A stretch of 18,194 nucleotides of DNA from a virus (lineage: Duplodnaviria > Heunggongvirae > Uroviricota > Caudoviricetes): the IMG/VR virus record IMGVR_UViG_3300029107_000044, positions 1 to 18,194 of that record; one strand, given 5' to 3'. The notes under the pieces were generated by a model. The model saw only the letters and a program-made list of their open reading frames with translations. It ran no database searches and was not told where the DNA came from. Position numbers and translations under genes: made by a program. This document shows, in pieces, positions 1 to 18,194 of the stretch; position 1 is the first letter of the stretch; each line of letters starts with the position of its first letter.

Positions 1-489
1 ATGGCTACCAATCCGAGAGAACATGCCCGGCGAGTGCTGGAGACGTTCTGGCGTGGTCGGGACTTTCCTGTCGATCCTGCAAAAATCGCTAACGATATGG
101 GGATTGATGTTTTTATTGGCAAATTACCGGGCAATGTGTCTGGGGCTTTGATCAAGCAAAGGTGTCAGGATCCCGCAATCTTTCTTAACGCAGATGATAG
201 CAAGCCCCGGCAGCGCTTTTCGTGCGGACATGAACTCGGTCATTATATTGCCAGACTGGCAGATCAAAGTGACGTCTATGAGTACGCTGATTTTCGTGGT
301 GAAGAATCCAGGAGTGGAACTGATCCAGATGAAATCTTTGCGAATCAGTTTGCTGCTGAACTTCTTATGCCTATAGATGAAGTAAAAAGACTGCATTCTC
401 AGGGACATCCGAGCTATGTTATAGCACATCATTTCGGAGTGTCTGATGATGCGATCAATTTCCGTCTGAAGAATCTAAGGTTAGCCTGA
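1..489 (+). CDS. ImmA/IrrE-family (M78-like) zinc metallopeptidase; may be 5'-partial at the window edge
   Basis: 162-aa ORF with HEXXH motif (SCGHELGHY) and a downstream FAxxLLMP-type motif typical of ImmA/IrrE peptidases. ATG sits exactly at position 1, so the true start may lie upstream. Confidence 0.6.
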   Translation: MATNPREHARRVLETFWRGRDFPVDPAKIANDMGIDVFIGKLPGNVSGALIKQRCQDPAIFLNADDSKPRQRFSCGHELGHYIARLADQSDVYEYADFRGEESRSGTDPDEIFANQFAAELLMPIDEVKRLHSQGHPSYVIAHHFGVSDDAINFRLKNLRLA

Positions 490-500
490 TACATTGAGCT

Positions 501-968
501 ATGCAGCACGAGAACGATTCTGATAATGAATTCAGGTTGTCGGTATTCGATACCCTAAAGGGAACGCTGAACCAACATAGACAGATGGCTGAAGAGGGGC
601 GCGACGAACAGGCCTTTAAAAAAGATGAAGAGATCGAGAGTGAACATTTTGTCTATAGATCACGCACAAGGAGTGGCACAGATCATTCCGATGTGACACA
701 GGTTGGTTCGCTTGACCCTGAGCAACACAGAAAACAGCTCAGTAACAGAGATTTTGAAGGTGAGATTAAGTTAAAAAAGACCTATGGTATCTGGCTTTTG
801 TTTATTCTTGCCATCCAGTTGCTTGTTATGAATGCGGTGTTCATTGTGGTTGGATTTAAGACACTGGTATTTGATGCCTTAACATTGCAGCTGTACATGG
901 GGGGAACCTTAACAGAAGTGTTTGGGCTTGTTCTCGTAATCACGAAGTACCTCTTCAATCGAAAATAG
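501..968 (+). CDS. hypothetical membrane protein (acidic N-terminal region, about two C-terminal transmembrane helices)
   Basis: 155-aa ORF 12 nt after the peptidase stop, same strand. C-terminal hydrophobic stretches (IWLLFILAIQLLVMNAVFIVVGF; TEVFGLVLVITKYLF). No recognised family. Confidence 0.4.
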   Translation: MQHENDSDNEFRLSVFDTLKGTLNQHRQMAEEGRDEQAFKKDEEIESEHFVYRSRTRSGTDHSDVTQVGSLDPEQHRKQLSNRDFEGEIKLKKTYGIWLLFILAIQLLVMNAVFIVVGFKTLVFDALTLQLYMGGTLTEVFGLVLVITKYLFNRK

Positions 969-1002
969 CCCCATTGGTTGATTTGGGGCCTTTGCTATTT
1001 CA

Positions 1003-2013
1003 TTACCCTTCTTTTTTGACTAATGGCAGATCCAGTGTTGGTGTGATTTTCGTTTTCCGGTCATAAACTAGCACTTGCGCTTCAGTCTTATGTCCAGAGA
1101 AAAGCTGTTTGTCCCGACTGCTTCCCTCATAGTCTGAAATCCCTTTAGCCTTAAGATCATGAAAGGTGAAGTCGGTTAAAATACCTGAAATTTTGCCTGC
1201 GCGATTTCTTGCTTCTACCCACATTTCGTTAAAGCCTTTGTACATATATCGGTTGCCGTATTGATTGCTGATTACATAGGCGGATGTTGGTAACTGTTTT
1301 GCTTTTTCGATCGCCGCCTGTAATCGTGGACTCCATGCTTTTATCTGTTTTTTCCCTGTTTTCCCTTGCTGGATAAAGATCCCGTCGTTTCCAATCTGCT
1401 CCCATTTCAGCGATAACACATCGGAAACCCTCGCTGCACACAGATAGGCAATTTCCATTGCGATAAAAACAGGAAGAGGTGCAACGCTTAATACTGCCTG
1501 GTATTCTTTATCAGTTACATATCGTTCGCGGTTTTTGGCCTTGAATTTACTTACACCTGCACATGGGTTACTCTTCACGTACCCTCGCTCATACCCCCAA
1601 CTGTAAACGCGGGACATACTGCTTTTTTCATGGTTGGCTTGCGTTTTACTCTGTTCCCCTCTCTTGTCCATGTATCGACGGATGTGTTCTGGTTTTATGG
1701 AATCTGCCTGCACCTTACCGAATACGGCAAGCAACTTTTTTTGATGTTGCAGATAATCTTTTTGTGTTCTTGGACTGAGGTCACTGTAATAGGCGCTGGC
1801 GAGGAATTTTTCCCACAAGCGACCGAATGTCATTGCGCGATCGCGATTATTTACAGTTTCCTCATACTTTTTCCATAAAGCAGCTAAACCATCCTTGATG
1901 GCGGTTAGTGTGACAGATTCTCTGGATGTTGGTTTCCATACATAACTATATTTATTTGGGTATACATTTGGAGGTAGTTTTTCGTGTTCAGGATTTTTCC
2001 TTCGTCTTCCCAT
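1003..2013 (-). CDS. int: phage tyrosine integrase (lambda Int-like)
   Basis: 336-aa ORF. N-terminus MGRRRKNPEHEKLPPNVY resembles lambda Int MGRRRSHERRDLPPNLY; C-terminus GHKTEAQVLVYDR resembles the lambda Int catalytic-Tyr region (LGHKSDTMASQYRDDR). Confidence 0.9.
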   Translation of the reverse strand: MGRRRKNPEHEKLPPNVYPNKYSYVWKPTSRESVTLTAIKDGLAALWKKYEETVNNRDRAMTFGRLWEKFLASAYYSDLSPRTQKDYLQHQKKLLAVFGKVQADSIKPEHIRRYMDKRGEQSKTQANHEKSSMSRVYSWGYERGYVKSNPCAGVSKFKAKNRERYVTDKEYQAVLSVAPLPVFIAMEIAYLCAARVSDVLSLKWEQIGNDGIFIQQGKTGKKQIKAWSPRLQAAIEKAKQLPTSAYVISNQYGNRYMYKGFNEMWVEARNRAGKISGILTDFTFHDLKAKGISDYEGSSRDKQLFSGHKTEAQVLVYDRKTKITPTLDLPLVKKEG

Positions 2014-2216
2014 CAGATTGCACCAAAATTCGGCTCTACCTCGCGTGGTGGTAAAGTTTTATTGCAGGTAAATAGATCCCGGCTGACAATCGGTTTGCCA
2101 CTACGATTGGTATAGAACGGAAGCCCGTTTTCCGTTAACCATTTTCGCTGGTGGCTTGCATATTTGCAGCCCGTTAATATTAGCAATTCATCTTCGGTTA
2201 AAAATAAGCTGCTCAT
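2013..2216 (-). CDS. excisionase-like protein (Xis)
   Basis: 67-aa ORF directly upstream of int on the same strand, its end overlapping the int start codon. Position and size fit a lambdoid xis; sequence family not verified. Confidence 0.5.
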   Translation of the reverse strand: MSSLFLTEDELLILTGCKYASHQRKWLTENGLPFYTNRSGKPIVSRDLFTCNKTLPPREVEPNFGAI

Positions 2217-2274
2217 AGCTATATCTCATAACCGCCGCTAACTATATACGGTTAGCGGCAATTAGGGTTGAACA

Positions 2275-4749
2275 TTAAAAATCAGCCTGACTCGGGATCA
2301 GTTTTTGCCAGATAGCTGAAACGTATTTTGCCTGGTAACGGGCGTCATCAAGTGCATTGTGGCGCTCACCTTCGAATGGAATATCCGTTCTGGCATCGAA
2401 GTTCAGGGCTTTTCCCAGCTCAACGATTGTGCGCACATCGCGATCGTTGCAATAACGCCACGGGCAGGGGATCCCCTGCCGTTCGTATGAACGGCGTAAA
2501 ATCACGTTGTCGAAGTTGGCTCCATTTCCCCAGACCTGAACAAAAAACTCACCGGAGTTTTCATCGATAAATTCCCGCAATTGCAGCAATGCATCATCTA
2601 ACGGGATTTCATCGGTCAGAATGGCAGATTGCGCCTCGCGTGATTGCTTAAGCCACCATTTAATGACGTCACGATCAATGACTCCGCCAGCAGTATCCAG
2701 ATCGATGGTCTTGCTAAATTCCGGCCCCATCTCTCCGGTTTCGGGATCAAAGAATTTACCGCCAATAGAGTTGATTGGCGCATCAGGATTTGTTCCCATC
2801 GTTTCAAGATCGATCATCAGATGGTGCCACACCCGGCTGGTGGATGTGATAACGTGATGACCGTTCACCGCAATTAAGGGATCTGTCGCCTCGCCAGTTT
2901 CACTATCGCTGGCGTGGCCCTGAGCGCTTCCCGCATTCTCCTTGTGTGGATGTTCAGCGCCTTCCATTTTCTCCGAATCGTCTTCCTGAACTTCGACCTG
3001 ATTCTCGTCATCGAACGTTTCCTGGTATGTTGCGTCACCCATCACCGCGCCACAATCAGGGCAGTTGCCGCCACCGCTCTTACCGCAGGCGGTGCAGATC
3101 TTTTCCGGTTCCTGTTGCGCTACTGGTTCGGATTGTTTCGTTTCTGGCTCGTTTTGTTGCGTATTTGGGCTGTTTTGCTCCGCTTTCTGGTCGTTCTGTT
3201 CCGTTTCTTGCTGGTTCTGGTTCACAGAATCGCGGGTTTCAATTCCCTTCACCCACTTCGGATCATTCGGGTCGCTAATCCCTGCAACAAATTCTCCGCG
3301 AGAGGCAGCAAGCAACTGATTGGCGTCAGGCTGGCTGATATTGGCTGCCTGCATAATTTTGTTTACTTCGTCAGCGGTAACTTTTACCGGCTCTGGTTGT
3401 GCTGCCGTGTCAGACGCACCAGTATTTTGTTGTGAGCCTGAGTATGTGCCGTTTTTACGGGCAAAATATTCTTCTTTCGTGATTTCAGTAGCCCCGGCAG
3501 CCAGCGCCTTTTCCAGACCTGAAAGTTTGTTTGCACGACCGTATTTTTCGCCATCCTTATCTGTGAAGAGGAAGTAGAACGGCCCCTCACGCTCTACAGA
3601 TGGTTCGACTTCCACTTCGCATTCGGTTTTTTCGTTGTCCGGCATTGCCGTTTCCACTGCATCAGTTTCAGGTACTGGCGACGGGAGAGTATCAGTTGTG
3701 CTCTGATTTGTTCCTTCATCTTCAAATACGCCCTTTGTAGTCAGGTAGTCAGTGATGTATTTGTTCAGTGCCACAGGGTCTTTGTGAATGTCGATCGGAC
3801 GTTCACGGACAAGGCCAAAAATAGTCTGACGGTCGTAACGAATGGCATCAGGCTGTTTGCGCATTGATGCAGAAATACGCTTCCAGTCTTCGCGATCGTT
3901 CTCGATAACTTCATTTTTTGCCCAGCGATGGATGCTGCCGTCAATGTTTCCGGCATCAATGTCACCAGGCCACAGAGAGTAGGCCAGCTCTTCATCCAGC
4001 GTTTTCCATGTCTGCTTGTATTCGCGACGAATGGCAGTAGTGACAGGGTTGATTTTTTCTGCTGAGTTTTCAGTGTGCTGTCGGTTGACTCTGGCGCGGG
4101 CAAGATCAACAACAGAAGTATATGCACCACCTTCTTTGCGATCCTTTTCCTGGCGTTTTTTACGGTCGAGAAAATATGCCTGAACGTCGGGCCATTTGGC
4201 GGTTGGTTTTAAATCATGTCTGGCATCGTTGATGTATTCAATCTGACGTTCCGGATACATGGCGTTAATTTCTTTAGTCCGGATAATTGCTTCTGCGAGG
4301 TGTCCGTCAAAGGTCATCATGTCGTCATCACCAAGAAGCCCGCTTGCGTTGATGACCATATCCACGGTGACGTTTTCATGTGTGCCGAACTTAACGAGGA
4401 CAGCGGCCTGCTTGTCGTCGGATAACTGGTTAAAGTTAACAATTTCTGTATTCGGCTCTGGTTCGACCGGAACAAAGGAAGCGGATTCCTCATCCCAGCG
4501 GTTTTCCTGCATATATTCGGTATCCCAGGAATCAAGGGCGGGGCGGGCCATGCCGGGTTTATCCTCGCAGACAAGAAATTTATAAGCACAGTCCTGAGCA
4601 GCCGGATATTGCTCCAGGAATTGCCAGGTAAATTTGGCGCGGGCGCGGCGTTCGTCACCGGCTTCAATGGCAGTGGCTACAGCAACTGCACCTTCTTCCT
4701 TAATTGCCTGTTCGTCCGGAATGGCGGCGCAAATAAAGACTTTACTCAT
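2275..4749 (-). CDS. prophage exonuclease (exodeoxyribonuclease VIII / RecE-like linker with C-terminal DEDDh-type 3'-5' exonuclease domain)
   Basis: 824-aa ORF. Central segment (LLAASRGEF..GISDPNDPKWVKGI..CTACG..GGGNCPDCGAVMGDATYQETFD) closely matches the linker/zinc-ribbon region of Rac RecE as I recall it. C-terminal ~180 aa has DnaQ-like exonuclease motifs (MIDLETMG, HNALDDARY). Confidence 0.8.
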   Translation of the reverse strand: MSKVFICAAIPDEQAIKEEGAVAVATAIEAGDERRARAKFTWQFLEQYPAAQDCAYKFLVCEDKPGMARPALDSWDTEYMQENRWDEESASFVPVEPEPNTEIVNFNQLSDDKQAAVLVKFGTHENVTVDMVINASGLLGDDDMMTFDGHLAEAIIRTKEINAMYPERQIEYINDARHDLKPTAKWPDVQAYFLDRKKRQEKDRKEGGAYTSVVDLARARVNRQHTENSAEKINPVTTAIRREYKQTWKTLDEELAYSLWPGDIDAGNIDGSIHRWAKNEVIENDREDWKRISASMRKQPDAIRYDRQTIFGLVRERPIDIHKDPVALNKYITDYLTTKGVFEDEGTNQSTTDTLPSPVPETDAVETAMPDNEKTECEVEVEPSVEREGPFYFLFTDKDGEKYGRANKLSGLEKALAAGATEITKEEYFARKNGTYSGSQQNTGASDTAAQPEPVKVTADEVNKIMQAANISQPDANQLLAASRGEFVAGISDPNDPKWVKGIETRDSVNQNQQETEQNDQKAEQNSPNTQQNEPETKQSEPVAQQEPEKICTACGKSGGGNCPDCGAVMGDATYQETFDDENQVEVQEDDSEKMEGAEHPHKENAGSAQGHASDSETGEATDPLIAVNGHHVITSTSRVWHHLMIDLETMGTNPDAPINSIGGKFFDPETGEMGPEFSKTIDLDTAGGVIDRDVIKWWLKQSREAQSAILTDEIPLDDALLQLREFIDENSGEFFVQVWGNGANFDNVILRRSYERQGIPCPWRYCNDRDVRTIVELGKALNFDARTDIPFEGERHNALDDARYQAKYVSAIWQKLIPSQADF

Positions 4750-4872
4750 TTTGTTTTAACCTCATTACAGATTTAAGGGTGAACAAATCCCTGCCATTGC
4801 TGGCATATAAGAATCAAATCTGATGTATTCATTAAGCTGAATGTCGTATTGTGGCAGTTATTTTATTACTGC

Positions 4873-5094
4873 TCACCATGACTCTGCTTTTACAGGTAAA
4901 CCATCACGACCAAGGAAGACTTTAATCATGGTTTCCTTAATACAGTGTTGTGTGGAAAAATCACGAATATAGAGCCGTTGTTTTTTAATGTTGTTTACCG
5001 AAGCAATATATGTTCTTCCTTTATGAATAACATAATCACCGGGAGTCACGCACTGACGAGGAATCTCATCAGTTCCGAAGTGATGAGCAATCAT
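4873..5094 (-). CDS. hypothetical protein at the dicB position of the operon (not DicB-like)
   Basis: ORF-track 77-aa ORF; a GGAG RBS precedes the second in-frame ATG (5094), giving 73 aa. Lies downstream of DicF in the same operon direction; no similarity to K-12 DicB recognised. Confidence 0.4.
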
Positions 5095-5268
5095 AATTAT
5101 CTCCATTTTTACAAATGAACTTTGTTGATGCGGTGCCTGGTGCCTCCAGGTGACGTTAACCAGTTAACAATTAACGCCGGATACAGAGAATCCACCCATA
5201 ACACAGTTTTCTGTTTTAACTGTTCCGCGTGCGCTCAGCCGCATTCACCACATCACAAAATTCACTTT

Positions 5269-5326
5269 AAAAAGGGCGGCAGAGCAGTCACGGAGTAAAA
5301 CTGATACCGCCAAACGTCACCAGAAA
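5269..5326 (-). ncRNA. dicF: DicF small regulatory RNA (cell-division inhibitor sRNA targeting ftsZ mRNA)
   Basis: Minus-strand sequence TTTCTGGTGACGTTTGGCGGTATCAGTTTTACTCCGTGACTGCTCTGCCGCCC followed by TTTTT matches DicF as I recall it, including its intrinsic terminator. Synteny downstream of ydfC supports it. Confidence 0.85.
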
Positions 5327-5666
5327 ATTGATAACAGAGGGCGTTGCAGCGGGGTTGTCACTTAAGCGTATGGTCAACCTGACAACCCGGTGTCCTCAAC
5401 GGGGAAGGAATAACCCCGCCATACTTACCGCCGCGCCATTTCGCGGGTTGCCACAACCGGAAGCGCACGGTCGACGAAAATTTAACGACAGGCTATCTAT
5501 GAACCAGCTACCTCGCCGTGCGCTTTCGCGTTATGGTCTGACTTTTCAGGGAAATATCCTTTCAGTAAACTGTCAGTGCCGGATGCTCACCCGTGTCCGG
5601 CGCACGCACTCCACCTCACCCGTGGAGAACTCCTTAATTACCAACCTTAGCTTCGTTGGTTAGCTA

Positions 5667-5885
5667 TTAACGCGGGTATGTAATCATTCTGGCAATGCTT
5701 AATGCCGCTGCTTTTTCCAGATTGGTGATATCCTGCTCCAGAGAGAACAGATTTTCAGCCTGCTTAGCCCTGGCTTCATTAGCCCATTTCAGATCCTGCG
5801 CTGCATTAATTTTCTGGTGCATCCACTCATAAAGTTCATCATCGGTATAGTCTGGCGCGATGATAACGGGTTCTCGTTTCTGCAT
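5667..5885 (-). CDS. ydfC: YdfC-like prophage protein
   Basis: 72-aa ORF with AGGAA RBS before the ATG. Length and position (third gene after dicA, just upstream of DicF) match K-12 Qin ydfC (72 aa). Confidence 0.6.
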   Translation of the reverse strand: MQKREPVIIAPDYTDDELYEWMHQKINAAQDLKWANEARAKQAENLFSLEQDITNLEKAAALSIARMITYPR

Positions 5886-5914
5886 ACTGATTCCTTGCGG
5901 TGCTGTTTCGCTTA

Positions 5915-6043
5915 TCAGCCGTTAGATTTTGCCGAACTGGAAAGCGCCTGTTTAAATTCGCTGAAGCTGAGAGCTTCTTCGCCTTCGGCAAGGCCTTCGA
6001 AGTATTCTTCGTAAGCCTTTTCCATGATTGTGTCGAAATCCAT
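5915..6043 (-). CDS. ydfB: YdfB-like small protein (42 aa)
   Basis: Hand-translated ORF below the track's 60-aa cutoff: MDFDTIMEKAYEEYFEGLAEGEEALSFSEFKQALSSSAKSNG. Sits between the ydfA-like and ydfC-like genes; length matches K-12 ydfB (42 aa). Confidence 0.5.
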   Translation of the reverse strand: MDFDTIMEKAYEEYFEGLAEGEEALSFSEFKQALSSSAKSNG

Positions 6044-6044
6044 A

Positions 6045-6200
6045 TCACCCACCTGAATTTCTTTCCAGCCAGCGACGCGCTCCAGATTCGGTTTTAAACG
6101 TTTTGCTTTTGGTATACGTCATTGCGGTGAACGTGCCGTCCTGGTTTGGAAACACGCCGTACACCAGAGATTCGTTGTTGCCAAGATCGATAGTATCCAT
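6045..6200 (-). CDS. ydfA: YdfA-like small protein (51 aa)
   Basis: Internal ATG at 6200 with a GAGG RBS 5 nt upstream gives MDTIDLGNNESLVYGVFPNQDGTFTAMTYTKSKTFKTESGARRWLERNSGG (51 aa). First gene downstream of dicA; length matches K-12 ydfA. Confidence 0.5.
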   Translation of the reverse strand: MDTIDLGNNESLVYGVFPNQDGTFTAMTYTKSKTFKTESGARRWLERNSGG

Positions 6201-6314
6201 GCTGACCTCATTTCCCCTTAACGCCGGGGTAGCGGAACTGTTTGCTGAGAACACCGTGCGGTGTCTTGATGGAAAATAATTTAGAATAACCTAACATGAG
6301 AGGCAAGTGTTTTT

Positions 6315-6332
6315 TGTTAGATTGATCTAACA
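6315..6332. promoter_or_regulatory. 18-bp palindromic operator TGTTAGA-N4-TCTAACA upstream of the ydfA-dicF operon (putative DicA operator at the dicB-operon promoter)
   Basis: Perfect inverted repeat TGTTAGATTGATCTAACA between the dicA stop and the ydfA start. A second copy with identical arms lies at 6826-6843. Confidence 0.55.
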
Positions 6333-6368
6333 AAAAGGGTGGGCGCAACTAATCACTTGAAAAGAATG

Positions 6369-6776
6369 TTATTTTATTGATTTATTTTTACGCGCTTTAA
6401 GCATTTCTTCGAAGAGTTTGTTGAAGTTTTCTACTCTTGCGCGCATTTCAGACAGCAAGGCTTCCTGCTCGGAAGATGGAAGAGCATCGAATAATTCGAT
6501 CAATTCTTTGTGGTTGGGAGTTAGCTCTGTTTCCACATGAAGTTCTTGTGCAGGCACTGGTGCCTTGTCTTCGTCACCAAACATTAGCCATGTAGGTGAG
6601 CACTTCAGAGCATCCGCTAAAGCAAACAATCGTTTTCCGACTGGCTGGGTTTCGTCTCTTTCCCATTGTGAAATTGTGACGTGAGCAACTCCAGCGAGGC
6701 GCGCGGCTTCTCGTTGTGTTAAGCGTAATTCTTTTCGTCGCGCCAGAACTCGCTGGCCCAGGGTTCTTGTATCCAT
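6369..6776 (-). CDS. dicA: DicA-like HTH (XRE-family) repressor
   Basis: 135-aa ORF with an N-terminal XRE-type helix-turn-helix (LRLTQREAARLAGVAHVTISQWE) and no S24 peptidase domain. Length and divergent arrangement with a cro-like gene match K-12 dicA (135 aa). Confidence 0.8.
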   Translation of the reverse strand: MDTRTLGQRVLARRKELRLTQREAARLAGVAHVTISQWERDETQPVGKRLFALADALKCSPTWLMFGDEDKAPVPAQELHVETELTPNHKELIELFDALPSSEQEALLSEMRARVENFNKLFEEMLKARKNKSIK

Positions 6777-6798
6777 AGTTAGGTAATTCTAATTTTTC

Positions 6799-6843
6799 TT
6801 GACTTAGGTATCCCGCGCACAATAATGTTAGAAAAGTCTAACA
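6799..6843 (+). promoter_or_regulatory. divergent dicA/dicC control region: sigma-70 promoter (TTGACT-N17-ATAATG) overlapping an operator palindrome
   Basis: TTGACT at 6799-6804, 17-nt spacer, ATAATG at 6822-6827. Palindrome TGTTAGAAAAGTCTAACA at 6826-6843 overlaps the -10 and precedes the dicC RBS (GAGGGGG). Confidence 0.55.
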
Positions 6844-6856
6844 AGAGGGGGATTTG

Positions 6857-7084
6857 ATGCTTAAAGTTGACGCAATTACTTTTTTTGGCAGCAAAACAAA
6901 GCTTGCCAATGCCGCAGGAGTGAGGCTGGCAAGTGTTGCTGCTTGGGGGATACTGGTTCCTGAAGGTCGCGCGATGCGTCTACAGGAGGCATCTGGCGGG
7001 GAGCTTCAGTATGATCCCAAAGTTTATGATGAATATCGTAAGACGAAGCGGGCGGGGCGGTTGAACAATGAAAATCACTCCTGA
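6857..7084 (+). CDS. dicC: DicC/Cro-like small DNA-binding regulator (YdaS-like)
   Basis: 75-76-aa ORF divergent from dicA with a strong RBS. The track starts at TTG 6854; ATG 6857 is the likelier start. Length and position match K-12 dicC (76 aa). Confidence 0.65.
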   Translation: MLKVDAITFFGSKTKLANAAGVRLASVAAWGILVPEGRAMRLQEASGGELQYDPKVYDEYRKTKRAGRLNNENHS

Positions 7085-7589
7085 ACAGGCTCGTGAGGCT
7101 CTGGATGCCTGGATATGTCGACCAGGAATGACACAGGAGCAGGCGACGATATTAATCACTGAAGCATTCTGGGCTTTGAAAGAGCGCCCGAACATCGATG
7201 TTCAGCGTGTCACAGATGAAGGTGGCGCGGTTGATCAGCGAGCGCTTGGTGTTAATCGAGTGAAGATATTCGAACGCTGGAAGGCTATCGACACCAGGGA
7301 TAAGCGTGAAAAGTTCACGGCGCTAGTGCCTGCGATTATGGAGGCTATCCGGATTAGTGATTTCAGGTTGTATCGTGAAATTACTGACGGAAAAAGCATC
7401 ACGTGCATGATCGCCGGGTTAAACAAAGAATATGGCGATGTGGTGGAGTCCGGACTGCTTTTTGCTGATCCTGCCGTAGTGGATCGTGAAACTGACGAAC
7501 TTATAGAAAAAGCAATTGCTTTCAAGCTTGCGTATCGACAGCAATACCAACAAAAAGCTGGATGGAATTATGAGCCTTCTTTTTGCTGA
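7068..7589 (+). CDS. YdaT-like protein (CII-position regulator/toxin-domain family)
   Basis: 173-aa ORF overlapping the dicC end. Segment KIFERWKAIDTRDKREKFTALVPAIMEAI resembles the Rac YdaT sequence as I recall it. Confidence 0.55.
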   Translation: MKITPEQAREALDAWICRPGMTQEQATILITEAFWALKERPNIDVQRVTDEGGAVDQRALGVNRVKIFERWKAIDTRDKREKFTALVPAIMEAIRISDFRLYREITDGKSITCMIAGLNKEYGDVVESGLLFADPAVVDRETDELIEKAIAFKLAYRQQYQQKAGWNYEPSFC

Positions 7590-8535
7590 ACGCCCACTGG
7601 TTATAAACACGCAGCTGGCAATGAAAATTGGCTTAAACGAAGCCATTGTTTTGCAACAACTGCACTACTGGTTGAGAGATACCAACTCCGGCATGGAATG
7701 TGATGGTGTTCGCTGGATTTATAACACAACGGAACAATGGCTGGAACAGTTCCCATTCTGGTCAGAGTCAACGTTAAAGCGCGCGTTTGCAAGTCTGAAA
7801 ACGCTGGGGCTTTTGCGTTGTGAAAAGCTCAATAAATCAAAGCGCGATATGACCAATTTCTACACGATCAACTATGGGAGCGAGCTTTTAGATGGTGGCA
7901 AATTGAGCGAATCCATCGGTTCAAAATGCGCCGCTCCATCAGGTCAAAATGACACGATGGAAGAGGTCAAAATGAAACGCTCCATTGATTCAAAACGACC
8001 CAATGTCATCGGGTCAAAATGGCCTGATGATCTTACAGAGAATACAACAGAGATTACTACAGAGAATAAAAACACTTTTCGTCCGGAAGCTTCGCAACCG
8101 GACCCGCAGACGACTGAACAGGATTTTTTAACCCGGAACTCCGACGCGGTTGTGTTTAGTGCGAAAAAACGCCAGTGGGGTAGCAGGGAGGATTTGGCGT
8201 GTGCGCAGTGGATCTGGGGGCGGATCGTGGGTCTCTACGAACAGGCAGCCAGTGATGATGGCGAGATCATGCGACCAAAAGAGCCTAACTGGACTGCCTG
8301 GGCCAATGACGTGCGCACAATGCGGATGCTGGATGGCAGAAGCCACAGACAAATTTGCGAAATGTTTGGTCGGGTTCAGCGAGATCCATTCTGGGTAAAA
8401 AACATCATGAGCCCGTCAAAGCTCCGCGAAAAATGGGACGAACTGGTCATCCGCCTGGGACGTTCACCTGTACAGCGTTGTGTTAATCATATTTCTGAAC
8501 CGGATACAGAAATTCCGCCTGGTTTCAGAGGATAA
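7570..8535 (+). CDS. phage replication initiation protein (O-like replisome organiser with DnaT-like C-terminal domain)
   Basis: ATG 7570 is preceded by an RBS; the track ORF starts in-frame at 7516 inside the upstream gene. N-terminal HTH-like region, central repeat-containing linker that carries iterons in the DNA, C-terminal DnaT-like region (judged by eye). Confidence 0.7.
   Translation: MSLLFAERPLVINTQLAMKIGLNEAIVLQQLHYWLRDTNSGMECDGVRWIYNTTEQWLEQFPFWSESTLKRAFASLKTLGLLRCEKLNKSKRDMTNFYTINYGSELLDGGKLSESIGSKCAAPSGQNDTMEEVKMKRSIDSKRPNVIGSKWPDDLTENTTEITTENKNTFRPEASQPDPQTTEQDFLTRNSDAVVFSAKKRQWGSREDLACAQWIWGRIVGLYEQAASDDGEIMRPKEPNWTAWANDVRTMRMLDGRSHRQICEMFGRVQRDPFWVKNIMSPSKLREKWDELVIRLGRSPVQRCVNHISEPDTEIPPGFRG
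7918..8021 (+). repeat. putative replication origin: five direct iterons (GGTCAAAATG core) at ~23-bp spacing inside the initiator gene
   Basis: Repeats at 7918, 7941, 7964, 7988 (degenerate) and 8011, followed by an A-rich stretch at 8022-8090. Layout is analogous to lambda ori within gene O. Confidence 0.6.
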
Positions 8536-8575
8536 GTGTTGATTTCAGGTCATGAGGTAATTTTAAGGGGGACTT

Positions 8576-8998
8576 GTGGCAAAAGTTTTTACACAAGAAG
8601 AGCGGGAAAAAATTAAATGGCAGGTGGTGGAACTCGTGCGCCAGAGCGGCCGTGAGACGTTACGGCAACTGGAAGCTAAAACAGGTGCGACTAGATATCT
8701 GATGAGCGTTCTTGCCAGAGAGCTGGTAGCCAGTGGCGATGTATACAACTCCGGCTACGGGTTATTCCCCTCTGAACAGGCGCGTAAGGACTGGCAAAAC
8801 GCCCGCAAAAAACTCTCGAGGGCAAAGGTGAAGAAACCTGCTGTGGTTGATCCGGACCTTATCTGGTCATCACCTGACGGAGAAATACGTCGCTACGACA
8901 GTCGCCTAAACATAATCTGTCGCGAGTGCCGGAAGAGCGAAGTTATGCAGCGCATACTGGCTTTCTATCAGGGTAATTTTCAGGACGTGGCGCAGTGA
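8576..8998 (+). CDS. hypothetical protein, translationally coupled to the downstream methyltransferase ORF
   Basis: 140-aa ORF with GTG start and an AAGGGGG RBS 6 nt upstream. Its stop overlaps the next start in GTGA (8995-8998). No recognised family. Confidence 0.5.
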   Translation: MAKVFTQEEREKIKWQVVELVRQSGRETLRQLEAKTGATRYLMSVLARELVASGDVYNSGYGLFPSEQARKDWQNARKKLSRAKVKKPAVVDPDLIWSSPDGEIRRYDSRLNIICRECRKSEVMQRILAFYQGNFQDVAQ

Positions 8999-9351
8999 GT
9001 GCACCGGCAACCATTCTTGATATGTGCTGTGGCAGCCGCATGTTCTGGTTCGATAAGTCTGACGAACGGGCGATATTTAGCGATATCAGAAAAGAAGGAT
9101 ACACATTACGCAATGGGAGACGCTTGATTATCAGCCCTGACATTATCGCAGATTTTCGTGCATTATCATTTGCAGACGCATCTTTTTCGATGGTTGTATT
9201 AGACCCTCCGCATCTTGAGCGTGTTGGTGATAACGCCTGGATGGGAAAGAAATATGGACGGCTGAATAAAGATGCCTGGCGTGATGATTTGCGACAGAGA
9301 TTTAAAGAAGCTTTTCGGGTGTTGAGGCCGCACGGCGTTCTGATTTTTTAA
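8995..9351 (+). CDS. DNA methyltransferase, truncated (N6-adenine/N4-cytosine type; AdoMet motif I and DPPH catalytic motif present, target-recognition region absent)
   Basis: 118-aa ORF with motif I-like ILDMCCGSRMF, an acidic residue after the next strand (IFSDIR) and motif IV VVLDPPHL. It ends at a TAA after ...RPHGVLIF; the same frame continues past the stop (WNETQIPVSQILALTDRKPV...) and about 1 kb downstream has no long ORF. Confidence 0.5.
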   Translation: MSAPATILDMCCGSRMFWFDKSDERAIFSDIRKEGYTLRNGRRLIISPDIIADFRALSFADASFSMVVLDPPHLERVGDNAWMGKKYGRLNKDAWRDDLRQRFKEAFRVLRPHGVLIF

Positions 9352-9961
9352 TGGAATGAAACGCAAATACCGGTAAGCCAGATTCTGGCACTGACAGATA
9401 GAAAGCCTGTTATCTGTCAACGAACAGGGAAAAAACGATAAAACCCACTGGATTATTTTTATGAAAGAGGCATCCAGTGAGTAGATTCGTAAGGTTACAG
9501 ATACGTATATCTGAATAATTAAATTCAGTTCTGTAAATAAAACTTAATCCTTAACCGGATGGATTTCTGCACCCTCAGAACATCAGGAGGCCGCCCGAAA
9601 GGGCGGTAGTGAAATGCGAAAGTTCAAAATTATTATTGAAACGGGAATAGCTGGTGGAGATTTTGAGGATGTATTCGAAGTGGACGATGACGCAACACCT
9701 GATGAAATTCATGACGGAGCATAAGAAATTTTCTTTAACTACTGCAATTACTCATACCACGAAATAAAAGACGATGAGGAAGAACAAAGTGGCTGATTTT
9801 TGTTCAGCTAAATATAACATCAGTTTTGAAGAGCGGGATGAACTATTAATGGACTATGGTGAGTTACGCGGTGGAAGTGCTGCTGATGTCGAATCCTAGC
9901 GTGATGACTATGAAGCGGGAAAAACTCCGGTCGAAGCATATTGTGATGAGTGGGGCGATGA

Positions 9962-10249
9962 ATGAGCGAGATTAATTATCAGGAAGGGCATGAAACGGCG
10001 GGGCAAGCAAAACCAGTGACATGGCGATATCGCTACGTGAAAAAAGGCGTTACGGACTTTCAGGGGAAGTAGTGGTCTGGTGACTGGAAATATGTACCGA
10101 AAAAAGAGGATTGTAACGACAGGCCGAACTATCAAATTCAGGCCTTATTCACTGCCTCACCAGTCCCGGTTACATCAGAAGAATTGGTTAAAGCTGTGCA
10201 CTTTTATGAACAACTAAAACGCGAAAATCCACCAACATCCGGCAACTAG
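9962..10249 (+). pseudogene. possible nonsense-disrupted ORF (96 codons with one in-frame amber at 10070-10072)
   Basis: Hand translation: MSEINYQEGHETAGQAKPVTWRYRYVKKGVTDFQGK, then TAG, then WSGDWKYVPKKEDCNDRPNYQIQALFTASPVPVTSEELVKAVHFYEQLKRENPPTSGN. Could be coincidental. Confidence 0.3.
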
Positions 10250-10683: not shown

Positions 10684-11017
10684 ATACAGCGAACTCCATT
10701 GGTTTAGTTGGATATTTACTGTGCTGGACAAAAACGGTTTGCGGGGAAATCTTAGTTAAGTAGAATGACTGCGGGTGCTTGAGGCTATCTGCCTCGGGCA
10801 CGAACACCAACGGCAGGTAGAGAAAAGCCCCAGTTAACATTACGCGTCCTGCAAGACGCTTAACATTAATCTGAGGCCAATTTCATGCCAGACACATGTA
10901 GGTTAGCCTCTTACGTGCCGAAAGGCAAGGAGAAGCAGGCTATTGTTAACACCAAGCTGTAATGTCCCCTTTGAACCATTCTAAAATGTCCCCAGACAAT
11001 TCTCTGGGGGATTTTTC

Positions 11018-14258: not shown

Positions 14259-14414
14259 ATGAAGCAGCAAAAGGCGATGTTAATCGCCCTGATCGTCATC
14301 TGTTTAACCGTCATAGTGACGGCACTGGTAACGAGGAAAGACCTCTGCGAGGTACGAATCAGAACCGGCCAGACGGAGGTCGCTGTCTTCACAGCTTACG
14401 AACCTGAGGAGTAA
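14259..14414 (+). CDS. hokD: HokD (RelF) Hok-family membrane toxin
   Basis: Hand-translated 51-aa ORF MKQQKAMLIALIVICLTVIVTALVTRKDLCEVRIRTGQTEVAVFTAYEPEE, a typical Hok sequence, with RBS AGGAGAAGCAGG upstream. Below the ORF-track size cutoff. Confidence 0.85.
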   Translation: MKQQKAMLIALIVICLTVIVTALVTRKDLCEVRIRTGQTEVAVFTAYEPEE

Positions 14415-14630: not shown

Positions 14631-14882
14631 ATGATGAACATCGAAGAACTGCGTAAAATTTTTTGTGAAGATGGCCTCTATGCTGTGTGCGTTGAAAATG
14701 GAAATCTTGTTAGTCATTACCGCATTATGTGTTTGCGAAAGAATGGGGCTGCGTTAATTAATTTTGTGGATGCTCGGGTCACGGACGGATTTATCTTGCG
14801 CGAAGGTGAGTTTGTCACTTCATTACAGGCATTGAAAGAGATCGGAATAAAAGCTGGCTTTTCTGCTTTTTCAGGAGAATAA
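14631..14882 (+). CDS. rem: Rem-like prophage protein (function unknown)
   Basis: 83-aa ORF downstream of hokD, matching K-12 Qin rem in length and position. Confidence 0.55.
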   Translation: MMNIEELRKIFCEDGLYAVCVENGNLVSHYRIMCLRKNGAALINFVDARVTDGFILREGEFVTSLQALKEIGIKAGFSAFSGE

Positions 14883-17465: not shown

Positions 17466-17678
17466 TCATGAAAGGTAAACATTGGCAGCTGAAGGGCCAC
17501 GCAGACCATTTATCCGGCAAAATTCCACGCGTAATCCGGTGGTAATTTCTTCTGCATCGCGGAGATTGAGCGCTGAGACATGAAGCTGGACATCGATACG
17601 ACCATCGGATGGGGTGATAAGACCCTTGCCGCTTTTGCCGTCAAAGGTTTTGACAATTCCTGTCATTTTACGGGACAA
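17466..17678 (-). CDS. cspF: cold-shock-protein family protein CspF-like (lacks canonical RNP motifs)
   Basis: 70-aa [34 protein letters not shown]...[11 protein letters not shown], matching K-12 CspF as I recall it. Confidence 0.8.
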
Positions 17679-17978
17679 AAAAATTCCTTAATACTGATAA
17701 CTTGGCGCACTATACACACGTTCCTGAAGAAAGCTATAGTTTTTTGATGGGGTTGAAGATGGCTGGATGTCTAAAATAAACATTGCTTCATATGTTCAAC
17801 TATGCGTTAATGATTGCGTCGGTTTGAAGAACAGACGATATACGAAGTAGTTTACTAAAGCAGTTCTCATTTCAGGTGTTATTCACTTATTCCTTCTTTG
17901 AGTCTCTCCAATTAAGTACGAAGTCGTTTCTGTTATACAAACCATTTATGCCGAAAGGCTCAAGTTAAGGAATGTAGA

Positions 17979-18194
17979 ATGTCAAATAAAATGACTGGTT
18001 TAGTAAAATGGTTTAACGCTGATAAAGGTTTCGGCTTTATTTCTCCTGTTGATGGTAGTAAAGATGTGTTTGTGCATTTTTCTGCGATTCAGAATGATAA
18101 TTATCGAACCTTATTTGAAGGTCAAAAGGTTACCTTCTCTGTAGAGAGTGGTGCTAAAGGTCCTACGGCAGCAAATGTTATAATTACCGATTAA
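17979..18194 (+). CDS. cspB: cold-shock protein CspB-like (could be a CspI-like paralogue)
   Basis: 71-aa [41 protein letters not shown]... with canonical RNP1/RNP2 motifs; the stop coincides with the window end. Confidence 0.8.

What the first reader, a model, noticed from the sequence alone, without database searches (positions are those of the whole stretch)
5269..6776. Complete dicA-ydfABC-DicF operon, but no DicB-like gene after DicF
Five ORFs match the K-12 Qin genes in length and order (135, 51, 42, 72 aa plus divergent 76 aa) and DicF is present with its terminator. The gene after DicF is an unrelated 73-77-aa ORF rather than a DicB-like sequence, suggesting a cassette swap at the cell-division-inhibitor position.
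Basis: partly seen in the sequence, partly recalled or inferred. Interest (0 to 1): 0.5.

Follow-up and report, generated by a model that had tools for sequence, protein, structure and literature searches.

The report
DicF operon carrying Kil instead of DicB
A Qin-like prophage has the usual DicA-repressed ydfABC-DicF operon, but the gene after DicF is the Rac-prophage cell-division inhibitor Kil rather than DicB, a mix of known prophage parts already present in about 3% of complete E. coli genomes.

Summary
DicF is at 5274-5326 (-) and is identical to K-12 DicF. Upstream lie ydfC, ydfB, ydfA and a dicA-type repressor, with a divergent dicC. No DicB or YdfD is encoded anywhere in the window.

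The "unrelated 73-77-aa ORF" is not unknown. It is Kil/KilR (4873-5094, -, 73 aa), the Rac-prophage FtsZ inhibitor: it passes the NCBIfam cut-off over its full length, is 81% identical to K-12 KilR, and has dN/dS 0.15. One division inhibitor therefore sits where another normally sits.

The roughly 180-nt leader between the sRNA terminator and the inhibitor gene is homologous in Qin (DicF-dicB) and Rac (KilS-kilR), which gives recombination a substrate. This window is a recombinant. Its left arm (int-exo-kil) matches a kil-type prophage, and its right arm is 100% identical to a dicB-type prophage. The crossover lies in 5213-5343, which contains DicF.

The DicF-kil junction occurs in 149 of 5426 complete E. 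coli genomes, against 4002 with DicF-dicB. It also occurs in 24 IMG/VR contigs and in phage Evi.

The predicted function is co-expression of DicF and Kil from dicBp, blocking FtsZ. This is ordinary lambdoid mosaicism and of modest interest.

The parts
6854..7084 (+). dicC-type Cro-like regulator. It is 75 aa from the ATG at 6857, or 76 aa from the TTG at 6854.
   Evidence: NCBIfam DicC 165.7 bits (cut-off 130) and Pfam P22_Cro. 85.5% identical to K-12 DicC. 100% identical to WP_000921596.1 of strain N12.
6799..6843 (+). PR-like promoter for dicC (TTGACT-16-AATAAT, 6799-6826), followed directly by the operator palindrome TGTTAGAAAAGTCTAACA (6826-6843).
   Evidence: Promoter scan. The pattern TGTTAG-N6-CTAACA occurs twice in the window against 0.04 expected by chance. 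The same motif lies in the K-12 dicC-dicA spacer.
6369..6776 (-). dicA-type CI-like repressor, 135 aa. It is a different allele from K-12 DicA.
   Evidence: NCBIfam DicA 224.7 bits and Pfam HTH_3. 55.6% identical to K-12 DicA. 100% identical to WP_000381212.1 of strains WAT and N12.
6278..6332 (-). dicBp, the PL-like promoter: -35 TTGCCT at 6306-6301 and -10 TAAATT at 6283-6278, with the operator TGTTAGATTGATCTAACA at 6315-6332.
   Evidence: Alignment with the K-12 dicBp region, where the -35 and -10 hexamers are in register. Operator pattern. DicA represses dicBp in K-12 (PMC10448788). The promoter assignment here rests on homology and was not measured.
6045..6200 (-). ydfA (51 aa, DUF1391).
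   Evidence: Pfam DUF1391 at 99.4 bits. 96% identical to K-12 YdfA.
5915..6043 (-). ydfB (42 aa).
   Evidence: 100% identical to K-12 YdfB. PHROG 2061.
5667..5885 (-). ydfC (72 aa).
   Evidence: 96% identical to K-12 YdfC. PHROG 1744.
5274..5326 (-). DicF sRNA (53 nt). Its terminator hairpin is followed by a T-tract at 5269-5273.
   Evidence: Rfam RF00039 at 76.7 bits. 53/53 identical to K-12 DicF. Predicted fold.
5213..5343 (.). Crossover interval of this recombinant. To the left the window follows the kil-type prophage of strain 2015C-4136CT1. To the right it is 100% identical to the dicB-type prophage of strain WAT.
   Evidence: Mismatch maps: no mismatch to WAT across 5213-10100, and a single mismatch to the kil-type locus between 4800 and 5343, followed by many. 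Sliding identity.
5095..5273 (-). Conserved leader between the DicF terminator and the kil start. It is homologous to both the Qin dicF-dicB spacer and the Rac kilS-kilR spacer. The switch from Qin-like to Rac-like sequence lies at about 5113-5126. PGAP labels 5121-5204 'DicB, partial' in identical loci.
   Evidence: Alignment A1 and blastn. Sub-threshold Rfam STnc100 match, 38.6 bits against a gathering score of 47. The 'DicB partial' call is only the stretch upstream of dicB that stays open in frame in K-12, so it is not part of the 62-aa DicB.
4873..5094 (-). kil (kilR-type FtsZ/division inhibitor, 73 aa) with a GGAG Shine-Dalgarno sequence at 5104-5101.
   Evidence: NCBIfam NF008465 'FtsZ inhibitor protein' at 139.7 bits (cut-off 92), matching model positions 1-73 of 73. 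PHROG 294 Kil at 113 bits. 81% identical to K-12 KilR, E=2e-47. Identical to WP_000560212.1, annotated kil. dN/dS 0.15 against K-12 kilR.
4792..4805 (-). Hairpin TGCCAGCAATGGCA followed by GGGATTTGTT, in the flank shared with dicB-type loci. It is the candidate 3' end of the read-through transcript.
   Evidence: Terminator-like scan, weak fold of -8.8 kcal/mol, conserved in K-12 and WAT. Its K-12 position fits the end of the 1,608-nt ydfABC-dicFB-ydfD transcript of PMC10448788. That position is my calculation from the paper's numbers, so it is an inference.
2275..4749 (-). 824-aa exonuclease, the next gene of the early-left operon.
   Evidence: Pfam Rv2179c-like 3'-5' exonuclease at 215.5 bits, and a partial NCBIfam exonuclease VIII match. 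Annotated 'exonuclease' in relatives.
14631..14882 (+). rem, the antirepressor shown in K-12 to relieve DicA repression of dicBp.
   Evidence: 100% identical to the annotated Rem of strain N12. Function from PMC10448788. Whether it acts on this DicA allele was not tested.

Best explanation
This is the early-left (PL-type) operon of a Qin-like lambdoid prophage. Its order is dicA / dicBp - ydfA - ydfB - ydfC - DicF - leader - kil - exonuclease. The slot after DicF holds the Rac-type FtsZ inhibitor Kil in place of DicB+YdfD.

Shown here:
- The identities of all the parts.
- The absence of DicB and YdfD from the window.
- The homology of the sRNA-to-inhibitor leader between Qin and Rac.
- That this window is a recombinant, with its crossover in the DicF region.
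- That the same DicF-kil junction recurs in many E. coli prophages and in one sequenced phage.

Inferred from K-12 work:
- DicA bound at the TGTTAG-N6-CTAACA operators keeps dicBp off.
- When repression is lifted (by the Rem antirepressor or by spontaneous switching), a polycistronic RNA is made.
- RNase III and RNase E release the 53-nt DicF, which pairs with ftsZ mRNA and lowers FtsZ synthesis.
- Transcripts that read through the DicF terminator carry kil. It is translated from its own GGAG site, and Kil blocks FtsZ-ring formation.
- The result is division arrest and filamentation by two hits on FtsZ.

Compared with a dicB-type operon, the expected losses are the MinC-dependent route, DicB's inhibition of ManYZ (which protects against some phages), and the YdfD lysis protein.
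For: - Part identities.
- DicB and YdfD are absent.
- The boundaries of the alternative segments and the leader homology with Rac at 82%.
- Recombinant structure.
- Recurrence: 149 of 5426 genomes carry the discriminating DicF-kil junction, against 4002 with DicF-dicB. IMG/VR holds 24 contigs with DicF-kil against at least 120 with DicF-dicB. Phage Evi carries the junction at 98.1% identity.
- kil is intact in all 22 IMG/VR loci that hold the full gene, and 21 of them are identical to this allele. dN/dS is 0.15.
- The dicBp hexamers and operators align with K-12.
- K-12 regulation and the read-through transcript: PMC10448788.
- Rac Kil prevents FtsZ-ring formation: as summarised in PMC3961180 and PMC10798246.
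- DicB functions: PMC6832061.
Against: - Nothing about expression or phenotype was measured here.
- This Kil is 19% different from the tested K-12 KilR, with the differences clustered in residues 39-56.
- This DicA is only 56% identical to the K-12 protein, so operator use and sensitivity to Rem are assumptions.
- In Rac, kilR expression is limited by Rho/NusG termination (PMC10798246). The same could silence kil here.
- The hairpin after kil is weak (z = -1.2).
Confidence: 0.85

Rival explanations
1. kil is present but is not part of the DicA-controlled operon. It would either be silent, because transcription stops at the DicF terminator or by Rho action in the leader, or be driven by its own promoter in the leader, as was suggested for KilS in Rac.
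For: DicF ends in a proper intrinsic terminator. Rac kilR is kept off by NusG/Rho (PMC10798246). Bar et al. report that KilS may have its own promoter (PMC8175672).
Against: In K-12 a 1,608-nt transcript reads through DicF into dicB-ydfD, and no internal promoter was found (PMC10448788). The terminator and most of the leader here are the Qin-type sequence. No promoter-like site lies on the minus strand between DicF and kil, although that scan is insensitive and also missed dicBp.
Confidence: 0.12
2. The exchange was a small in-situ cassette replacement, a double crossover that swapped only dicB-ydfD for kil inside an otherwise unchanged prophage.
For: Both sides of the 279-nt segment are shared with dicB-type loci: the leader on the right, and 4601-4834 on the left at 88%. 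Prophages of this family at the same tRNA-Ser/mtfA site carry either allele.
Against: The whole left arm (exonuclease and onward) is only 64-92% identical to the dicB-type relatives, yet about 100% identical to a kil-type prophage. Identity to the dicB-type prophage reaches 100% only from 5213 rightward. For this window, a single crossover in the DicF region is enough to explain that.
Confidence: 0.15
3. The ORF is a decaying remnant, or a gene whose function is unrelated to division.
For: The protein is small, has no Pfam family and no solved structure.
Against: It gives a full-length match above the curated NCBIfam cut-off. It is 81% identical to the experimentally studied KilR. dN/dS is 0.15, and the identical protein occurs in 21 independent contigs, two complete genomes and a phage. 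The Shine-Dalgarno sequence is intact.
Confidence: 0.04

Closest known systems
dicBF operon of cryptic prophage Qin (E. coli K-12): dicC / dicA - ydfABC - dicF - dicB - ydfD
   Same: Same gene order up to DicF. DicF is identical, YdfA/B/C are 96-100% identical, and the dicBp hexamers align. The operator motif TGTTAG-N6-CTAACA is shared, the leader after DicF is about 93% identical, and rem is present.
   Different: DicB and YdfD are absent and Kil stands in their place. The DicA allele is only 56% identical. Here the prophage's exonuclease reading frame is intact.
Early-left operon of cryptic prophage Rac (E. coli K-12): racR - ydaG - ydaF - kilS - kilR - ydaE - racC - recE
   Same: Kil is 81% identical to KilR. 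The leader between the sRNA terminator and kil is homologous (82% over 4858-5279). The last ~30 nt before the start codon, including the ribosome-binding site, are of the Rac type. ydaF is a DUF1391 homologue of ydfA.
   Different: The sRNA is DicF, not KilS. KilS shares only the terminator half with DicF: it scores 39.1 bits on the DicF model against a gathering score of 48. There is no ydaE or racC. The repressor is DicA-type, not RacR. The kil allele differs (82% nucleotide identity).
Prophage of E. coli 2015C-4136CT1 (NZ_CP027550) and Escherichia phage Evi (LR597642)
   Same: Same DicF-leader-kil-exonuclease junction at 99.8% and 98.1% identity, with an identical Kil protein. PGAP already annotates the gene as kil.
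   Different: Different repressor/immunity regions. No complete E. coli genome covers more than 88% of window 4700-7100 in one place, so the exact combination of modules is new but each junction is not.
kil of bacteriophage lambda (PL operon, between cIII and gam)
   Same: A small FtsZ-ring inhibitor encoded in the repressor-controlled leftward early operon, just upstream of the recombination genes (PMC3961180).
   Different: No sequence similarity, and it belongs to different PHROG families. Lambda has no DicF-like sRNA.

Membership tests
DicF RNA (Rfam RF00039) | Covariance-model score above the gathering threshold, with the terminator stem-loop | tested here: met
   76.7 bits against 48, model positions 1-52 of 52. 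Hairpin plus U-tract.
DicF RNA (Rfam RF00039) | 5' single-stranded region that pairs with ftsZ mRNA | tested here: met
   The sequence is 53/53 identical to K-12 DicF, whose pairing with ftsZ was shown experimentally (PMC5069750). The window does not contain ftsZ, so pairing itself was not computed.
Qin-type dicBF operon | DicA-type repressor and DicC-type Cro flanking operators, with dicBp upstream of ydfA | tested here: met
   NCBIfam DicA and DicC above their cut-offs. Two operator palindromes. Promoter alignment.
Qin-type dicBF operon | ydfA-ydfB-ydfC-dicF in this order on one strand | tested here: met
Qin-type dicBF operon | dicB (62-aa MinC-activating inhibitor) downstream of dicF | tested here: not met
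   No BLASTP or tblastn match to DicB anywhere in the window. The PGAP 'DicB partial' call in identical loci covers only the upstream leader.
Qin-type dicBF operon | ydfD (lysis protein) after dicB | tested here: not met
   tblastn finds no hit better than E=0.65.
Kil/KilR FtsZ-inhibitor family (NCBIfam NF008465, PHROG 294) | Full-length profile match above the curated cut-off | tested here: met
   139.7 bits against 92, model positions 1-73 of 73. PHROG 294 at 113 bits.
Kil/KilR FtsZ-inhibitor family (NCBIfam NF008465, PHROG 294) | Close similarity to the experimentally studied Rac KilR | tested here: met
   59/73 identical, 92% positives, no gaps, E=2e-47. dN/dS 0.15.
Kil/KilR FtsZ-inhibitor family (NCBIfam NF008465, PHROG 294) | Expression blocks FtsZ-ring formation and division, and extra FtsZ suppresses the block | not testable with these tools
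   Requires an induction experiment. Known only for the K-12 allele (PMC3961180; Conter et al. 1996, which I could not read here).
Lambda Kil family (PHROG 3924/2461) | Sequence similarity to the 47-aa lambda Kil | tested here: not met
   No BLASTP alignment, and different PHROGs. It is a functional and positional analogue only.
STnc100 prophage sRNA (Rfam RF02076), considered for the leader at 5087-5272 | Score at or above the gathering threshold | tested here: not met
   38.6 bits against 47. The K-12 Qin spacer scores 34.4 and the Rac spacer 28. This is a resemblance only.

The most novel reading that the evidence does not exclude
'sRNA - conserved ~180-nt leader - small division inhibitor' may be a general plug-in architecture of lambdoid early-left operons. 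Examples are DicF-DicB in Qin, KilS-KilR in Rac, and DicF-Kil here.

Under this reading the leader is a functional RNA element in its own right, not just a spacer. It resembles the prophage sRNA family STnc100 below threshold. It would control read-through or translation of whichever inhibitor follows, and its conservation would make it the recombination joint that lets sRNAs and inhibitors reassort independently.

The DicF+Kil pairing would then be a selected combination that arrests division without needing MinC, rather than a neutral mosaic.
Probability: 0.15. Interest if true: 0.45.

Novelty: new member of a known kind. Interest (0 to 1): 0.25.

Why it matters
The window gives a clean natural example of unrelated small FtsZ inhibitors (DicB, Rac Kil, and by position lambda Kil) being interchangeable at one slot of the repressor-controlled early operon. 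The conserved DicF/leader region acts as the joint.

For work on DicF in pathogenic E. coli there is a practical point. About 3% of complete genomes carry a DicF copy followed by Kil, not DicB. For those copies, phenotypes attributed to "dicBF" (MinC dependence, ManYZ-mediated phage resistance, YdfD lysis) should not be assumed.

It also exposes an annotation artefact. PGAP labels part of the leader as a truncated DicB pseudogene.

Beyond that, the finding is ordinary lambdoid mosaicism built from known parts.

Tried and rejected
- Remnant of dicB between DicF and kil. PGAP annotates 'DicB, missing C-terminus' at the equivalent of 5121-5204. I rejected this as a true remnant. In K-12 the dicB frame simply stays open upstream of its ATG, and that upstream stretch is the conserved leader. 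None of the 62 DicB codons is present.
- Exact DicF...kil pattern in one genome per species (GTDB representatives): no match. A protein-based scan for Kil found only Escherichia/Shigella loci and two MAG contigs with identical sequence. All were the K-12-like allele, mostly preceded by KilS. Two had DicF, then about 2.2 kb including IS2-like sequence, then kil. So I found no evidence for the junction outside Escherichia/Shigella.
- Exact combination of modules. No complete E. coli genome covers more than 88% of 4700-7100. None of the 24 IMG/VR kil loci combines this dicA allele with an intact ydfC. I read this as reshuffling of known modules, not as a new element.
- Solved structure for Kil: none. 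No Pfam family either. I did not run structure prediction or the large protein searches, because the identity was already unambiguous.
- Literature. Searches for DicF with KilR/kil found no paper that describes the DicF-kil arrangement. The two papers most likely to bear on DicF-like sequence in Rac (Faubladier & Bouché 1994; Conter et al. 1996) are not held.
- The 111-aa plus-strand ORF at 5328-5663 and the other antisense ORFs in the region. I treated these as spurious. They overlap conserved, annotated minus-strand features and are not annotated in any relative.
Full report
**What is in the sequence**

All features below are on the minus strand unless stated.

- An Rfam scan places DicF at 5274-5325 with 76.7 bits against a gathering score of 48. 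The 53-nt sequence is identical to K-12 dicF. It folds into the expected terminator hairpin followed by UUUUU.
- Upstream lie ydfC (5667-5885), ydfB (5915-6043) and ydfA (6045-6200). Their products are 96%, 100% and 96% identical to the K-12 Qin proteins.
- Next comes a 135-aa DicA-type repressor (6369-6776). NCBIfam DicA scores 224.7 bits, but the protein is only 55.6% identical to K-12 DicA.
- A divergent DicC-type Cro lies at 6854/6857-7084 on the plus strand.
- Two perfect TGTTAG-N6-CTAACA palindromes lie at 6315-6332 and 6826-6843, against 0.04 expected by chance. They sit beside the promoters, and the same motif is in the K-12 dicC-dicA spacer.
- The dicBp -35 and -10 hexamers align with K-12.
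- The rest of the window carries rem, relBE, hokD, ydfU, the Q antiterminator and cspF/cspB. The context is therefore a Qin-like lambdoid prophage.

**The gene after DicF**

The ORF at 4873-5094 has a GGAG 6 nt upstream of its ATG, so it encodes 73 aa rather than 77. It has no detectable similarity to DicB. Neither DicB nor YdfD is encoded anywhere in the window.

It is not an unknown gene, for these reasons:

- It matches NCBIfam NF008465, "FtsZ inhibitor protein", over the full model length (139.7 bits, cut-off 92).
- It matches PHROG 294, "Kil protein for bacterial septation inhibition".
- It is 81% identical, without gaps, to KilR of the K-12 Rac prophage (E=2e-47).
- It is identical to WP_000560212.1, which PGAP annotates as kil in other E. 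coli genomes.
- Against K-12 kilR, dN/dS is 0.15.
- It is unrelated in sequence to lambda Kil.

**How the two arrangements relate**

I aligned the window with a dicB-type relative (strain WAT), K-12 Qin and K-12 Rac. About 180 nt between the sRNA terminator and the inhibitor's start codon are conserved in all four sequences.

- The window follows the Qin-type sequence down to about 5126.
- It follows the Rac-type sequence for the last ~30 nt before the kil start, including the ribosome-binding site.
- Leftward, similarity to dicB-type loci resumes at 4834, at 88%.
- So 279 nt here (4835-5113) replace the 402 nt that carry dicB+ydfD in WAT and K-12.

In Rac the position of DicF is occupied by KilS, an sRNA from the kilR 5' UTR (PMC8175672). 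Its terminator half scores 39.1 bits on the DicF model, which is below threshold. The two operons are thus built on the same plan.

In loci identical to this one, PGAP annotates a "DicB, missing C-terminus" pseudogene at the equivalent of 5121-5204. This is an artefact. In K-12 the dicB frame happens to stay open upstream of its ATG, and that stretch is the conserved leader.

**Origin of this particular window**

Sliding-window identity and mismatch maps give the following picture:

- 1021-5343 is nearly identical to the kil-type prophage of strain 2015C-4136CT1.
- 5213-10100 has no mismatch at all to the dicB-type prophage of strain WAT.
- The exonuclease arm is only 64-92% identical to WAT.

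This window is therefore a recombinant whose crossover lies within 5213-5343, an interval that contains DicF. The DicF-kil junction itself existed before that event.

Prophages of this family at the same tRNA-Ser/mtfA site carry either allele. No complete E. coli genome covers more than 88% of 4700-7100 in one place. Among 24 IMG/VR kil-type loci the upstream modules vary: a different repressor, sieB in place of ydfC, or a 591-nt insertion. This is the usual lambdoid reshuffling.

**Prevalence**

| Collection | DicF-kil | DicF-dicB |
|---|---|---|
| Complete E. coli genomes (5426), junction query at >=80% coverage | 149 | 4002 |
| Phage records | phage Evi, 98.1% | phages Tritos and mEp460_ev081 |

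The junction queries were built so that neither the dicB-type nor the KilS-type arrangement can reach 80% coverage of the kil query.

Species-representative genomes gave no exact match. Kil relatives there are confined to Escherichia/Shigella and are mostly preceded by KilS. Two loci show DicF, then about 2.2 kb including IS2-like sequence, then a K-12-like kil allele. One IMG/VR locus also joins DicF to a K-12-like kil allele. DicF-kil joints have therefore probably formed more than once.

**Mechanism**

The steps below are inferred from K-12 experiments, not measured here.

1. DicA represses dicBp, and the Rem antirepressor or spontaneous switching relieves that repression.
2. [quoted passage not shown]
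3. Both a ydfABC-dicF transcript and a longer 1,608-nt read-through transcript exist (PMC10448788).
4. From the paper's numbers, I calculate that the read-through RNA ends at the conserved hairpin that here lies at 4792-4805, just after kil.
5. DicF represses ftsZ translation (PMC5069750).
6. Rac Kil prevents FtsZ-ring formation by an unresolved mechanism (PMC3961180; PMC10798246).

Derepression should therefore hit FtsZ twice. Relative to DicB-type operons, I expect loss of MinC dependence, of ManYZ inhibition with its phage protection (PMC6832061), and of the YdfD lysis protein.

The uncertainties are:

- the 19% divergence from the tested KilR;
- the divergent DicA allele;
- possible Rho/NusG silencing of kil, as in Rac.

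**Comparison and verdict**

The locus meets the definition of a Qin-type dicBF operon except for its two terminal genes. Its replacement gene is a clear member of the Rac Kil family.

I found no paper that describes the DicF-kil arrangement. The mSystems survey notes only that some strains carry "parts of the dicBF locus". The arrangement is, however, already present and correctly annotated in many public genomes.

The result is a tidy, low-novelty example of module exchange at a conserved joint. It carries a practical caveat for DicF studies and one annotation artefact worth knowing about.

Noticed in passing
window 5087-5272 (-); also L004 2933-3142 and L005 6223-6409: The leader between the DicF (or KilS) terminator and the inhibitor gene matches the prophage sRNA family STnc100 (RF02076) over the whole model, but below threshold: 38.6, 34.4 and 28 bits against a gathering score of 47. 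It contains a conserved CCUGG-AGGCA-CCAGG hairpin. It may be a structured regulatory leader or a diverged sRNA (STnc100 context in bioRxiv 10.64898/2026.05.13.724894).
   Followed up: partly
L005 6406-6503 (K-12 Rac kilS): KilS looks like a composite. Its 3' half is a diverged DicF terminator domain (39.1 bits on RF00039). Its 5' part carries AUUGCUGUGUGUAGUC, identical to a conserved stretch of the RprA consensus. I did not find either resemblance mentioned in the KilS paper I read.
   Followed up: partly
window 1-1020: An ImmA/IrrE-family metallopeptidase (1-489, running off the window's left end) and a 155-aa gene with no family (501-968) sit outside the integrase gene. In strain ECL27977 the same pair lies between the tRNA-Ser attachment site and the integrase. 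The pair is rare, found in 6 of 5426 complete genomes.
   Followed up: partly
window 5121-5204 (-): In identical loci, RefSeq/PGAP annotates this stretch as 'cell division inhibition protein DicB, incomplete'. It is the conserved leader, which is in frame with dicB only in dicB-type loci, so the pseudogene call is an artefact.
   Followed up: yes
window 10773-10944 (+): A full-length Rfam sok antitoxin match (99.8 bits) lies in the region that relatives annotate as frameshifted hypothetical genes next to an IS. It is separate from hokD at 14259-14414. Whether a matching hok gene is intact was not checked.
   Followed up: no
window 6369-6776 (-) compared with L004 1435-1842: The DicA here is only 56% identical to K-12 DicA, and blastn finds no match across its N-terminal DNA-binding half. 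Yet the operator half-sites TGTTAG/CTAACA are the same as in the K-12 dicC-dicA spacer, while the flanking ydfABC and DicF are nearly identical. This suggests immunity-region allele exchange without a change in the core operator motif.
   Followed up: partly
L160 1-2737 and L155 1-2737 (E. coli ECMA0423, Shigella flexneri SFBU1023): DicF (only partly matched in L155) plus leader ends at the same point as in the window (equivalent to 5113). About 2.2 kb including IS2-like sequence follows, then a K-12-like kil allele with Rac-like sequence continuing downstream of kil. This looks like an independent DicF-kil joint, interrupted by an insertion.
   Followed up: partly
window 17818-18194 (+): An Rfam cspA thermoregulator match (154.6 bits, cut off by the window end) corresponds to the 5' UTR and start of the prophage cold-shock gene cspB, with cspF divergent at 17469-17678. 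This is the ordinary Qin content.
   Followed up: yes
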